A stretch of DNA of 64,000 nt from the NCBI RefSeq assembly GCF_016432865.1, contig NC_067399.1, forward strand, positions 515,468,001 to 515,532,000, read 5' to 3'. Positions 1 through 10,014 of this stretch are shown piece after piece. Source of the DNA: Antechinus flavipes (lineage: Eukaryota). Position 1 is the first letter of the stretch. Each line of letters opens with the position of its first letter. Position numbers and translations under genes: made by a program. Below the pieces are notes generated by a model. It saw only the letters and a list, made by a program, of their open reading frames with translations, was not told the DNA's origin and searched no databases.

Positions 1-27
1 CAAGAGAGTCACCTCCTATGATGACAG
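1..27 (+). CDS. NYNRIN: NYNRIN coding exon, 3' part only (NYN domain, KRVTSYDDR)
   Basis: AAG AGA GTC ACC TCC TAT GAT GAC AG|gtaaca. Paralogous to the KHNYN exon ending at 22867 (KRITSYDDR), same phase-2 donor. The 5' part of the gene lies upstream of the window. Confidence 0.88.
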
Positions 28-540
28 GTAACACATTCTTTTCACACAAGGCAATGTGGTGTGTATTAAAATTTTAGACTTAGAGTCCAGAAGATCTGAG
101 TTTGAACCCTTAGCTCTGAAACATAACATGAGATCTGTAGGTGAAGCATTCCCTGCAGAGTTCAGTTTTCTCATTTCTAAAAGGGGGGGATGATCATACT
201 TAGCCACCTACCTCTCAAGATCTTTGTAAGGAAAACACTCCATAAGCTTTAGTTGCTCATATTTCTATGCTGCTTTACTATTATTGAAAGAAGGACTTCT
301 ACAGCTTCAGTTCTTGAGCCTCTGGAGAAGGATATAAGGGTAGTTGGGTTTAGGGTGCCCTCTGAAGTTGGCATCTTGGGATATATTCAATTCTGAAAAA
401 AGAAAAGAGACCTTGGGGATAGTGTCTTTGATAGGGTTGAGAATAATCCTAGAGCTAATTATACATCAAGGAAGATACTAGATCTGGAAATTATCTCAAA
501 GAGAAGTGATGGTTGAAGCTGTAAGAGTGGATTAGATCAA

Positions 541-866
541 AATATCTTAAACTGTGGGTCATGACCCCATGTAATTTTATGTGGGGAGGGGGGGTCCTGA
601 AAATTTTGGCAACAGTAAAAGGTATCAAAGATTCAGCCACAATTTTATTCTTTATGTAAAAATTAATAAGCCATGATTTAATTCTTTATGTAAAAATTTA
701 AAATGACATGTATATCAAAGAATTGTTTTAAGATAAATTTCCTTATGATTTATTATCAGTAAATGTTTGATATGTTTATCTATTTTATATACCAAGATAT
801 CCTAGGTCACATAAAAATTTCTTGGATGAAAAAAGATAGTGAATAGAAAAAGTTTAAGAAGCCCTA
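541..866. mobile_element. Probable hAT/Charlie-type MITE
   Basis: Imperfect inverted ends tcttaaact / agtttaagaagccct; AT-rich interior with a duplicated attctttatgtaaaaatt. Confidence 0.4.
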
Positions 867-6148: not shown

Positions 6149-6250
6149 TCTGCTGCCTTTCACTTTTGTGGGGAATATCTTCATGGTTCCGGATGACCCA
6201 CTGGGCCGGGATGGCCCCACCCTGGACACATTCCTGAGGAGAACAGATGG
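6149..6250 (+). CDS. NYNRIN: NYNRIN coding exon (102 bp, [34 protein letters not shown])
   Basis: tag|T CTG CTG CCT TTC ... GAT GG|gtaacg. Carries the Regnase/N4BP1-family motif [10 protein letters not shown]; same size as KHNYN exon 29633-29734. Confidence 0.93.
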
Positions 6251-7160
6251 GTAACGGATTCCTCTCCCTTGGACAACCCTTCCCTCCCTCCTGTCACTTC
6301 TTTCTACCTCCTTTAGTGAATTAAGACGCTCTATAAAGGGAACAGAAGTAACATAAAACAAGCAGATTCTGCCCCCGTGCGTCAGAATGAGAGAATGACC
6401 ATTCATCTAGCTAAACTCAGACTCATAAGTTAGTCCTCTCCGCGCTCATTGTGTCAGACCCTTGTCCTTTGGGAAGATGGCCGGGATTGGCCCTAAGCAG
6501 ATAAGCTGGATAGTGGGCACAGTGAGTGGATTGCTGGAGTTCTGAGTTGGAATTCTGCCTCTGAGCCTGTCAGATTTTAGCGAAATCATTTCACTTTTTT
6601 TTTTTTTTTTTGCCTAGGTTTTCTCTTATGTAAAATAGTAGGACCTAACATCACAGGATTGTAGTGAGGATATAATGAGATAATTTATGCAAAAGTACTT
6701 TGTAAACCTTAAAGCACCGTCTAAATGTAGCCTCTTCTCATCTTCTTTTTCTATCTCTCCATACCACTCCTGAATTATTGTCTTATTCCTGAAAACCTGT
6801 TCCCGGCTGGCTGCCAACTAATCAGATTACTAGCTAGTGGTGAGTTGTGTGATTCTCCCAGAATATTGGCCCTTAAAGACTACAGTACCCATATATTTCT
6901 AGTGGTGAGATTTCAGGCATTATGAGAGAAGATGTAGAAGGAGTGTTTTAAGGGCATGAGTCTCTGCTTGGTGATTCTCAGATTATATTATATAGAGAGC
7001 TACTTACGCTGTTGTGTCTTGGTGATGGAATAGGAGTATTGCTATGATGCTCCCCCTCCCCCATCATTTTCCTAAGGATGACTTTTTTGACTAGTAATTA
7101 TGCTGTCTCTTTTCCCCACCTCCTTCACCCTTCCTCTCCCATTCTTTTCTCTCTTTGCAG

Positions 7161-10014
7161 GTTGGAGTTGGCTGTTAGCAATTTCCTGAAAGTCTGGGAG
7201 ACAAAGCCTTCTGCTAAAGCTTCCTTTCTCCCCATAAAGGCCAAGGGACTTCAGGGTAAGAAACATTTAAAGAGGGGCTGCTCCGGACCCCAGCAAAAGG
7301 GGAAGGTGAAGAAGCTGACGGAGGGTGTAGAGAAACTGATGGTCAAAGAAGGAGACGCTCTGGACGCTTGCCTGTCCACGGTTTTCCAAGAGGAATGCCC
7401 CTTCCTTTCAGATGATATCCTCCGGTATTTTAGCCTTCAGGACAACACCTCTGAGACCTCCCTCTCCCCCTGGAGAGGCTCTTCTCCACTTGATATCCCT
7501 TGGGGCGGGGCAGGGCAGCCCACCTGCCAGAGGGTCCTGGACCACTTGGCCCAGCTGTCGGTGCCAACCAGCTTCTCTGCTCTCTCCTTCTTTGTGGGGT
7601 TCATGGGATGCCACAAGGATGTGATCCCCCGCTACTCCTCGCTTGTTGCCCCGCTCCATGGCCTCCTCAAGAAGAAGACGCAGTGGCAGTGGACACCTGA
7701 GCACTCCCAGGCATTCCTAGCCCTGAAGCAGGCTCTGGTGTCAGCCCTCTCCTTGGTGCCCCCTGATCCCCAGCTGCCCTACCGCCTGGAGGTGGCAGTG
7801 AGTGAGAGGACCTTGGCCGCGGTACTGACACAAGAGCGGGCCGGCCTGCGGCGCCCCATTGCTTACACCTCCAAAGCCCTGCTCCCCCAGGAGGGCAAGG
7901 CTGCCCTGAGCAGAGGGGGCGGCCTCTGTGCCCTGGCCTGGGCTGTGAGGCGATTTGCCCCCTCTCTCGGATCTGTCCCTGTGGTTCTGGAAGCCTCCTA
8001 TATCTCCGGGGATTCGGCAGGCCGTGAGCAGAGGGAGAGTCCGGACACTTCCGACACGTGGCTGGCCCGGTGGTCCCTCCTGGTGCAGGATAAAGACCGG
8101 AGGACCTTGGGCACATCCTTCCTCCCCGGGCCTCTGGGGGACAGCGGCCTCCCGATGCCTACCCCTGATTCGTTGCCTCAGTTTTTCCAGATCCTGCCAC
8201 CCTTTTCTGACTTATCCTCCTTTGTATGCATTTATACCTCGGGGTATTGTTTTTATCAGGATACGGAGTGGTGTGCAGGCTTTGGGTTGTACGTCCTGTC
8301 TCCTGACAGTCCCCCCCTGTCCCTCTCTTTCTCTTGTTCCCCTCATACACCAACCTATGCCCACCTGGCTGCTGTGGCTTGCGGCCTCGAGCGCTTTGTT
8401 CATTCCTGCATCCCTCTGGTCTTTCTGGTTAATTGTAGCTGGCTGTTCAACATCCTCCTAGATCTCCTTCCTCTCTGGCACTCCCGTGGGTTTTTGTCTT
8501 CCGATGGGGCCCCATTGCCTCACCCGGCCCTGCTGTCCTATATCACTTCCTTGGCCTCCAGCCTCCCCACCTTGCCCTTCCTCTTCAAAGCCTCCTACAA
8601 GGGGGCCCTGTTCAGCGTGACAGTGGAGGCTCTGGCCAAGCAGGGTGCCCAAGGATCGGGGCCTCTGTGGAAGTTGCCAAGGCACATCATGCCTTCTGTG
8701 GGAGTGGCAGCCAGTCCCTTGGGCGGTGGGCCGAATCTACAGGCACTGCAGGAGAATGATGCCGTTTTGTTAGAAGCCATTTGTCACCTGCAGGCTGGGC
8801 GCAAACTTCCCGGACATTCACCCCTCAAGCCTTTTGAACCTGGAATCAGTTTTGTTAAGGAGCGCAGCCTGCTCATGTATGGAGAGATGAAGAGACCCAA
8901 GGTGTGGGTTGTCCCGGAGCAAATCCGGAAGGATCTGATTTATTCTGTGCATGATGTCCCTCCTGGCCCCCACGCTGACCCAGAGGAGACCCTCAGGAGG
9001 GTGAGGATGTTAGGCTGGTGGCCCAAGATGTATGGGCAGGTGAGGGCCTATTGCAAGTGCTGTTTGTTCTGTACCTCGATAAACAACCTGAGCAAGGAGT
9101 CCAAATGCATGCGGACCCAGTGGCCCTCAACACCGCCAGTGCCTTGGTCCAATCTTCAGATTGATGTGATCGGGCCTGTGCCTGCCAGTGAGGAGGGCCA
9201 CAGGCACGTGCTGATTGTGGCCGACTCCTGCTCCTCCTGGACAGAGGCTTTTCCCCTGAAGTCCTTCACGCAAATGGCGGTGGCCCAGGTGCTGCTCCAG
9301 CAGGTGTTTTCCCGGTGGGGCTTGCCGTCGAGGCTGGAAGCGGCCCAGGGGGCTCAGTTTGCCAGACACGTCCTGATGAGCTGTGGCTTGGTGCTGGGAG
9401 CCAAGCTGGGCAGCATCTCTGGGGATATCCAGCCCGCCGAACTAAGGGATGGGAACTCAAACCAGGCCTTTAAGAATTTGTTGAAGGAGTTTATCATCCT
9501 TCATGGGAAGAACTGGGCCAGTTGCCTGCCCCTTCTGCATATGGCCTTTAGAGCCTTGGAGTCTGGACCTACCCCTTTTGCAGTTGTGACAGGGAGTGAG
9601 ATGAGACTGGCTGAATCTTTGTGGTGGGAGCTCAGCGGGGCCCATGTAGAAGGGCTGAAGATGGATGTGTTCTTACAGCAGTTGAAAAATAACATCATAG
9701 AAAGTCAACTGCAGGCAGCTGTGGCTTCTGGGGACCAGTCTGTCATGGCCCAGAGTAGCTGCTTCCAGCAAGAAGTCCAGGGAAAGGAGTGGAACGTGGG
9801 AGACCAAGTTCTGCTTTTGAACTTCCCCAAACCTGGCACAGCTCGGTGGGTCGGACCCTACTATATTGTAGACAGGCTGAGTCTGTCTCTGTACAGGGTC
9901 TGGGGTTACCCAACTCCAGGGAAGCTGGGAGTCACATACCCCACTAATTTGATGAGGTCGTATCCCCAGGGCAGTGCCCCCTTACCCTCAGTGATATTAG
10001 AACAATTGGAGTAA
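7161..10014 (+). CDS. NYNRIN: NYNRIN terminal coding exon: domesticated LTR-retroelement Pol (RT thumb/connection, RNase H-like x2, HHCC zinc finger, inactive integrase core, GPY/F-like C-terminus), 950 codons
   Basis: Acceptor ctctttgcag at 7160, in frame with upstream exons; uninterrupted ORF to TAA at 10012-10014. Motifs: WQWTPEHSQAFLALKQAL, PIAYTSKAL, H-x6-H..CLFC, LQIDVIGP, WTEAFPL, WGLPSRL, WVGPY. Confidence 0.95.

What the first reader, a model, noticed from the sequence alone, without database searches (positions are those of the whole stretch)
1..10014. Marsupial NYNRIN may be a catalytically intact NYN ribonuclease fused to a domesticated retroelement Pol
Seen: the spliced NYNRIN exons read SYDDR and IVTNDQFRD, so three of the four PIN-fold aspartates are present, matching KHNYN in the same window ([14 protein letters not shown]). 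They are fused in frame to an uninterrupted Pol-derived exon of about 950 codons. Established: NYNRIN is a therian gene combining a KHNYN-like KH/NYN part with a Ty3/Gypsy-type Pol, and KHNYN is an endonuclease cofactor of the antiviral protein ZAP. From memory, human NYNRIN reads roughly TYDYR and TNEQIHIL at these positions, i.e. a pseudo-nuclease. Inference: marsupials may keep an ancestral active version, an RNase carrying retroviral nucleic-acid-binding folds, possibly acting against retroelements or in placenta. The first Asp (IDGS) lies upstream of the window and cannot be checked here.
Basis: partly seen in the sequence, partly recalled or inferred. Interest (0 to 1): 0.8.

Follow-up and report, generated by a model that had tools for sequence, protein, structure and literature searches.

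The report
Marsupial NYNRIN keeps its RNase site
This is the known mammalian gene NYNRIN; in marsupials its RNA-cutting domain keeps all four catalytic aspartates and is likely active, while placental mammals have lost two, a split already published in 2022 but apparently never tested at the bench.

Summary
Observation confirmed; core claim already in print. The window holds the last four exons of NYNRIN (matches RefSeq XP_051836524.1). The first aspartate lies upstream and is intact, so the PIN/NYN site is D702/D783/D784/D802, spaced as KHNYN's D443/D524/D525/D543. RNA contigs of a related organism splice the NYN exons to the Pol exon in 3 of 4 runs laid. All 12 marsupial species seen are DDDD; 74 of 74 other NYNRIN clusters are DDYE. 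Plianchaisuk et al. 2022 (PMC9447858) state exactly this split. Added here: the marsupial domain is 99% conserved against 91% for KHNYN in the same 8 species, and groups with eutherian NYNRIN, so the site is likely ancestral and under selection. The Pol part has no polymerase core, lacks the acidic sites of both RNase H folds and of the integrase triad, and has a retrovirus-type double RNase H. It replaces KHNYN's ZAP-binding CUE-like domain, so a ZAP-cofactor role is unlikely. Activity and targets are untested.

The parts
1..27 (+). 3' end of NYNRIN NYN exon; Asp783 and Asp784 codons at 20-25 (second and third catalytic Asp). Earlier exons, with the diKH domain and Asp702, lie upstream at about -23629..-23441, -4419..-2479 and -386..-70 in window terms
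5654..5761 (+). NYNRIN NYN exon with TNDQFRD; fourth catalytic Asp802 at 5703-5705
   Evidence: RNA joint
6149..6250 (+). last NYN exon ([19 protein letters not shown]); phase-2 donor equivalent to the donor that KHNYN uses for its CUE-like exon
7161..10014 (+). single retroelement-derived exon, 950 codons, stop at 10012-10014; single match in the genome for its RNase H part
7528..8088 (+). reverse transcriptase thumb and connection/tether (degenerate first RNase H fold); no fingers/palm, no YxDD
   Evidence: Pfam PF17919, PF17917; PDB alignments
8209..8631 (+). second, retrovirus-type RNase H fold, acidic metal-binding positions not acidic; 99.5% conserved among marsupials
   Evidence: alignment to foamy virus Pr125Pol; fold search
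8911..9081 (+). integrase HHCC zinc-binding domain, intact
   Evidence: Pfam PF17921
9154..9555 (+). integrase core fold with incomplete catalytic triad
   Evidence: PFV integrase alignment; PF00665 below its cut-off
19138..30497 (+). KHNYN, the tandem paralogue used as reference (diKH, PIN/NYN with DDDD, C-terminal CUE-like domain)

Best explanation
This is the known gene NYNRIN, a KHNYN duplicate whose last exon was replaced by a retrovirus-type Pol remnant; in marsupials its PIN/NYN domain keeps the complete active site and is likely a working metal-dependent RNA endonuclease, while the Pol part is predicted to be catalytically dead. Shown: spliced fusion, four Asp plus flanking active-site residues and the N-terminal arm, loss of the CUE-like domain, absence of polymerase core and of the Pol acidic sites. 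Inferred: it cuts single-stranded RNA with Mn2+ as KHNYN does; the dead thumb/RNase H/integrase folds act as a binding or scaffolding module that stands in for the ZAP- and ubiquitin-binding CUE-like domain and so sets location or targets independently of ZAP; eutherians kept the scaffold and turned the nuclease into a pseudo-enzyme.
For: D702/D783/D784/D802 have the spacing of KHNYN D443/D524/D525/D543 and align without gaps to the KHNYN ex-PIN crystal chain 9s2d, E 3.6e-96; that domain is a Mn2+-dependent endoribonuclease killed by D524A/D525A (PMC12709174 passages). DGSN, PSR, SYDDR and NDQFRD are kept in 12 of 12 marsupial species. 178 of 185 columns invariant against 139 of 185 for KHNYN in the same 8 species. 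Tree: marsupial plus eutherian NYNRIN domains form a clade, 95/87, stem 0.086 versus 0.32 in eutherians. Eutherians changed the site in concert (DGSS, PSQ, YDY, NEQ, two-residue deletion). Fusion mRNA in 3 of 4 runs. Same sequence reading in PMC9447858.
Against: No assay of any NYNRIN nuclease was found. The eutherian domain, which lacks two Asp, is itself 96% conserved, so strong conservation of this domain does not need catalysis. Nearly the whole marsupial domain is invariant, so the Asp residues do not stand out. PMC9447858 argues, by analogy with ZC3H12C, that nuclease activity does not contribute to trophoblast invasion. The binding role of the Pol part rests on conservation alone; the model of that part is weak (mean pLDDT 56.8). 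The mN+mK alternative for the PIN tree is not rejected (p-AU 0.118).
Confidence: 0.68

Rival explanations
1. The site is intact in sequence but the protein works as a scaffold in all therians; any nuclease activity in marsupials is weak, masked or incidental.
For: Eutherian pseudo-nuclease domain is 96% conserved and all Pol sub-domains stay conserved after loss of catalysis; PMC9447858 attributes the trophoblast role to the Pol part and loss of CUBAN.
Against: All four Asp and their neighbours are unchanged in 12 of 12 species from five marsupial orders, while the same positions changed together in eutherians; buried clustered acids are rarely kept without metal-dependent function (general knowledge).
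Confidence: 0.22
2. Marsupial NYNRIN is a second ZAP cofactor, redundant with KHNYN, acting on CpG-rich viral or retroelement RNA.
For: diKH and ex-PIN with N-terminal arm, both needed for KHNYN restriction, are kept.
Against: The CUE-like domain, which binds ZAP and carries the export signal, is absent. Near-invariance of the protein is not the pattern usually seen in virus-facing factors (general knowledge; dN/dS not computed).
Confidence: 0.06
3. The marsupial DDDD is not ancestral but was copied back from the neighbouring KHNYN by gene conversion.
For: The diKH tree groups the paralogues by lineage (91/79 and 92/89, not starred); the last NYN exon is 90% identical in DNA between paralogues, 5 of 16 fourfold sites differing; AU test does not reject a marsupial NYNRIN+KHNYN PIN clade (p 0.118).
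Against: Best PIN tree joins marsupial and eutherian NYNRIN (95/87); marsupial NYNRIN PIN is equally distant (77%) from marsupial and eutherian KHNYN; in the four exon pieces that carry the Asp or lie between them 27 of 42 fourfold sites differ between paralogues, so no recent conversion.
Confidence: 0.04

Closest known systems
NYNRIN (CGIN1, KIAA1305), therian KHNYN-Pol fusion gene
   Same: It is this gene: exon-by-exon match to RefSeq XP_051836524.1, 98% to Tasmanian devil NYNRIN and 51-57% to eutherian NYNRIN over the Pol exon, same domains, same neighbours CBLN3-like, KHNYN, SDR39U1-like (names recalled). The marsupial DDDD is described in PMC9447858.
   Different: Nothing in kind. Against eutherian orthologues: DDDD instead of DDYE. 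Against the 2022 paper: a tammar wallaby NYNRIN is now on record (XP_072478546.1), where that paper found none.
KHNYN (PRORP-group PIN/NYN endoribonuclease, ZAP cofactor; PDB 9s2d, 8wzc)
   Same: diKH, N-terminal arm and PIN domain, 77% identical, all four Asp.
   Different: No CUE-like/CUBAN domain (ZAP binding, ubiquitin/NEDD8 binding, export signal); 950-residue Pol remnant instead.
Regnase-1 family ZC3H12A-C and N4BP1
   Same: Same Pfam PF11977 nuclease domain.
   Different: No CCCH finger or UBA-type domains were detected; targeting module is retroelement-derived.
Retroviral Pol (foamy virus Pr125Pol and integrase; lokiretroviruses)
   Same: Thumb, tether, second RNase H, HHCC, integrase core in the retroviral order; best sequence and fold matches are foamy virus proteins; lokiretrovirus integrase is reported closest to CGIN1.
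   Different: No protease, no polymerase core, catalytic acidic residues missing; single-copy spliced host exon. No lokiretrovirus sequence was compared here.

Membership tests
NYNRIN | KH-like + NYN part joined in one mRNA to a Pol-derived last exon | tested here: met
   Pfam; RNA joints in 3 of 4 runs
NYNRIN | Orthology to annotated NYNRIN and tandem position beside KHNYN | tested here: met
Active PIN/NYN RNase (KHNYN/Regnase type) | Tetra-Asp motif in canonical spacing | tested here: met
   D702, D783, D784, D802
Active PIN/NYN RNase (KHNYN/Regnase type) | N-terminal arm that stabilises the KHNYN PIN domain | tested here: met
   ungapped alignment to 9s2d from residue 670; role
Active PIN/NYN RNase (KHNYN/Regnase type) | Metal-dependent cleavage of RNA | not testable with these tools
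   needs a biochemical assay; none found in print
ZAP cofactor of KHNYN type | C-terminal CUE-like domain that binds ZAP and holds the export signal | tested here: not met
   PF23054 found in KHNYN, not in NYNRIN; role
Active retroelement Pol | Polymerase core with YxDD | tested here: not met
   no RVT_1 hit; no motif
Active retroelement Pol | Acidic RNase H and integrase catalytic residues | tested here: not met
   three aligned RNase H positions and the second integrase position are non-acidic in 12 of 12 marsupial and 74 of 74 other rows
Canonical Ty3/Gypsy Pol | Single RNase H domain | tested here: not met
   two RNase H folds; foamy virus RT aligns over about 390 columns, Ty3 RT over 152. 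Some Ty3/Gypsy lineages also have two (abstract of PMC9040795 in listing), so this does not exclude the whole group
Lokiretrovirus-derived gene | Phylogenetic placement of Pol with lokiretroviruses | not tested
   only the published integrase statement was read (PMC7947760 passage)

The most novel reading that the evidence does not exclude
Marsupial NYNRIN is an active RNase whose ZAP-binding targeting domain was swapped for dead retroviral thumb/RNase H/integrase folds that recognise retroelement replication intermediates or their partners directly: a ZAP-independent restriction or RNA-decay factor built from the virus's own parts, silenced catalytically in placental mammals.
Probability: 0.1. 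Interest if true: 0.72.

Novelty: already known. Interest (0 to 1): 0.24.

Why it matters
The sequence fact is published, so the finding adds little as a discovery. It points to a clean natural pair, active-site-intact marsupial versus pseudo-nuclease eutherian NYNRIN, for a gene tied to trophoblast invasion and Wilms tumour predisposition (PMC9447858) whose biochemistry seems untested. If the marsupial enzyme is active and aimed by the dead Pol folds, it would show how a domesticated retroviral remnant can serve as a targeting module and what NYNRIN did before placentals lost catalysis.

Tried and rejected
Two separate genes or NYN-only product (the unspliced donor at 6251 runs into TAA): rejected, RNA contigs join the exons in 3 of 4 runs and KHNYN has the same donor-then-stop arrangement. 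Recent gene conversion from KHNYN as source of the Asp residues: not supported. dN/dS per branch: not computed, as only protein sequences of other species were held. Structure model of the RT/RNase H part: low confidence, used only for domain order; TM-scores 0.2-0.3. Pfam found no family on the second RNase H alone. In one search the column chosen for the third integrase position was off by one against the PFV alignment and is not used. RNA cover of the first intron and of the joint 27>5654 inside the reference was not obtained; only loose ends matching the upstream exon were seen in X2, X7, X11. P0114 (opossum KHNYN model with a NYNRIN first exon) was left out of both trees; trees used 36 of 61 aligned rows. 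Earlier scan findings: none. Marco and Marin 2009 was not read. Supplementary Fig. S4 of PMC9447858 was seen only as legend text; it may already list the marsupial species counted here.

Full report
Observation. The window opens inside a NYN exon reading SYDDR (Asp codons 20-25), followed by exons at 5654-5761 (IVTNDQFRD) and 6149-6250, and an open exon of 950 codons at 7161-10014. The introns are GT..AG and in compatible phase. KHNYN lies downstream with the matching motifs. The window is G000:C2:515468001-515532000; 50 kb upstream were fetched and show the earlier exons, including HIIIDGSNVAMV at L001:7295. The first Asp is therefore intact. All exons match RefSeq NYNRIN XP_051836524.1 of a dasyurid marsupial (99.8-100% where a hit stays within one exon).

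The fusion is real. Logan contigs of four runs from four studies of a related organism were laid on 5600-10014. X2, X7 and X11 each hold one contig with both joints, 5760>6148 and 6249>7160, running on through the Pol exon; X1 covers the introns and shows no joint, as DNA or unspliced RNA would. Only X2 is on record as RNA; X7 and X11 are guessed RNA, but precise intron removal supports it.

Active site. The four Asp are 702, 783, 784 and 802, the spacing of KHNYN D443, D524, D525, D543, whose PIN domain is a Mn2+-dependent endoribonuclease abolished by D524A/D525A (PMC12709174, passages and introduction). The domain aligns without gaps to the KHNYN crystal chain 9s2d including the N-terminal arm. 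Of 75 NYNRIN clusters returned, the one marsupial cluster is DDDD and 74 of 74 others (70 named eutherian, 4 unnamed) are DDYE; the KHNYN half of one fused model is DDDD. In the marsupial cluster 15 of 19 members were listed: 12 species' NYNRIN, all DDDD. 14 of 14 further primate proteins read TYDYR and TNEQIHI; human was not among those listed. Eutherians also changed DGSN to DGSS, PSR to PSQ and FRD, and lost two residues nearby.

This is in print. PMC9447858 section 10 (read whole) says that marsupial NYNRIN, KHNYN, N4BP1 and ZC3H12A/C have strictly conserved DDDD motifs whereas placental NYNRIN has two distal substitutions, indicating loss of nuclease activity at the metatherian-eutherian split. 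Its sections 6 and 11 were also read; Supplementary Fig. S4 only as legend. The paper argues by analogy that nuclease activity does not drive trophoblast invasion. Searches for NYNRIN alone, with 'marsupial', with 'nuclease activity' and with 'LINE-1' (listings, with passages read) turned up no assay of a NYNRIN nuclease; subscription papers are not covered.

What is added here. The marsupial NYNRIN PIN domain is 98.6% identical among 12 species; in the 8 species with both genes it is 99.0% against 91.0% for KHNYN, 178 against 139 invariant columns of 185. A tree of 36 of the 61 aligned PIN domains joins marsupial and eutherian NYNRIN (95/87), with a stem of 0.086 for marsupials and 0.32 for eutherians; forcing marsupial NYNRIN with marsupial KHNYN is worse but not rejected (p-AU 0.118). 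Fourfold sites between the paralogues in this genome differ at 6/10, 9/12, 7/15, 5/5 and 5/16 in the NYN exon pieces, against recent conversion. So DDDD is likely the retained ancestral state. Against over-reading: the eutherian domain without two Asp is 96.1% conserved too. The diKH tree instead groups paralogues by lineage, without firm support (91/79, 92/89; AU p 0.082 and 0.066 for the orthodox clades): a hint of early conversion, unresolved.

The Pol part. Pfam finds RT_RNaseH, RT_RNaseH_2, Integrase_H2C2 and a sub-threshold integrase core, no polymerase domain and no YxDD. It aligns to foamy virus Pr125Pol over thumb, connection and a second RNase H (E 2.3e-11) and to PFV integrase (E 3e-15). 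A low-confidence model (pLDDT 56.8) hits foamy virus RT first over 389 columns, Ty3 RT over 152. The double RNase H is the retroviral arrangement, and lokiretrovirus integrase is reported closest to CGIN1 (PMC7947760 passages); the 2022 paper calls the source Ty3/Gypsy. The three aligned RNase H metal positions and the second integrase position are non-acidic in 12 of 12 marsupial and 74 of 74 other rows, while HHCC is kept in 12 of 12 and at least 73 of 74. The dead second RNase H is the most conserved region: 99.5% among marsupials, 92.5% among 16 eutherians, 71% between, which suggests a binding role shared by all therians (inference).

Mechanism. Shown: a KHNYN duplicate in which the CUE-like exon (PF23054 in KHNYN, absent here) is replaced by enzymatically incomplete Pol folds. 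[quoted passage not shown] Inferred: the marsupial protein is a metal-dependent ssRNA endonuclease placed by the Pol-derived module rather than by ZAP (0.68). Rivals: scaffold with idle site (0.22), second ZAP cofactor (0.06), site regained by conversion (0.04). An anti-retroelement role is possible but has no evidence here.

Verdict. Real, correctly read, already known at the level of sequence; untested biochemically. Interest 0.24.

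Noticed in passing
P0095 (XP_072478546.1): Tammar wallaby has a full-length 1809-residue NYNRIN with DDDD, although PMC9447858 reported the gene absent there (and allowed that poor data might be the cause).
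   Followed up: yes
L003:5983-6159, L001:5387-5773 and window 19234-20311: diKH domains of NYNRIN and KHNYN group by lineage (marsupial with marsupial, eutherian with eutherian) rather than by gene; weak support, possible early gene conversion between the tandem copies.
   Followed up: partly
window 8209-8631: The catalytically dead second RNase H fold is 99.5% identical across 12 marsupials, the most conserved part of the protein; Pfam does not annotate it.
   Followed up: partly
P0098, P0047, P0114: Database gene models that fuse or mix NYNRIN and KHNYN (devil 2616 aa, desman 3044 aa, opossum KHNYN with NYNRIN first exon); likely annotation artefacts of the tandem pair.
   Followed up: no
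window 15378-17153 (-) and about 33500-36450 (-): Exons of a cerebellin/C1q-type gene and of a short-chain dehydrogenase-like gene flank KHNYN; names CBLN3 and SDR39U1 are recalled, not tested.
   Followed up: no
window about 49900-52950 (+): Decayed endogenous retrovirus remnant with protease and reverse transcriptase fragments (Pfam RVP, RVT_1), broken into short frames.
   Followed up: partly
window 4300-5397, 61945-63665 and L003:670-3224: LINE-1 fragments, one inside the first NYNRIN intron of the window (recognised from ORF2-like translations).
   Followed up: no
P0107, P0104 versus other marsupial KHNYN: Dasyurid KHNYN has a longer branch in the PIN tree (0.078) than other marsupial KHNYN, while dasyurid NYNRIN PIN is unchanged.
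   Followed up: no
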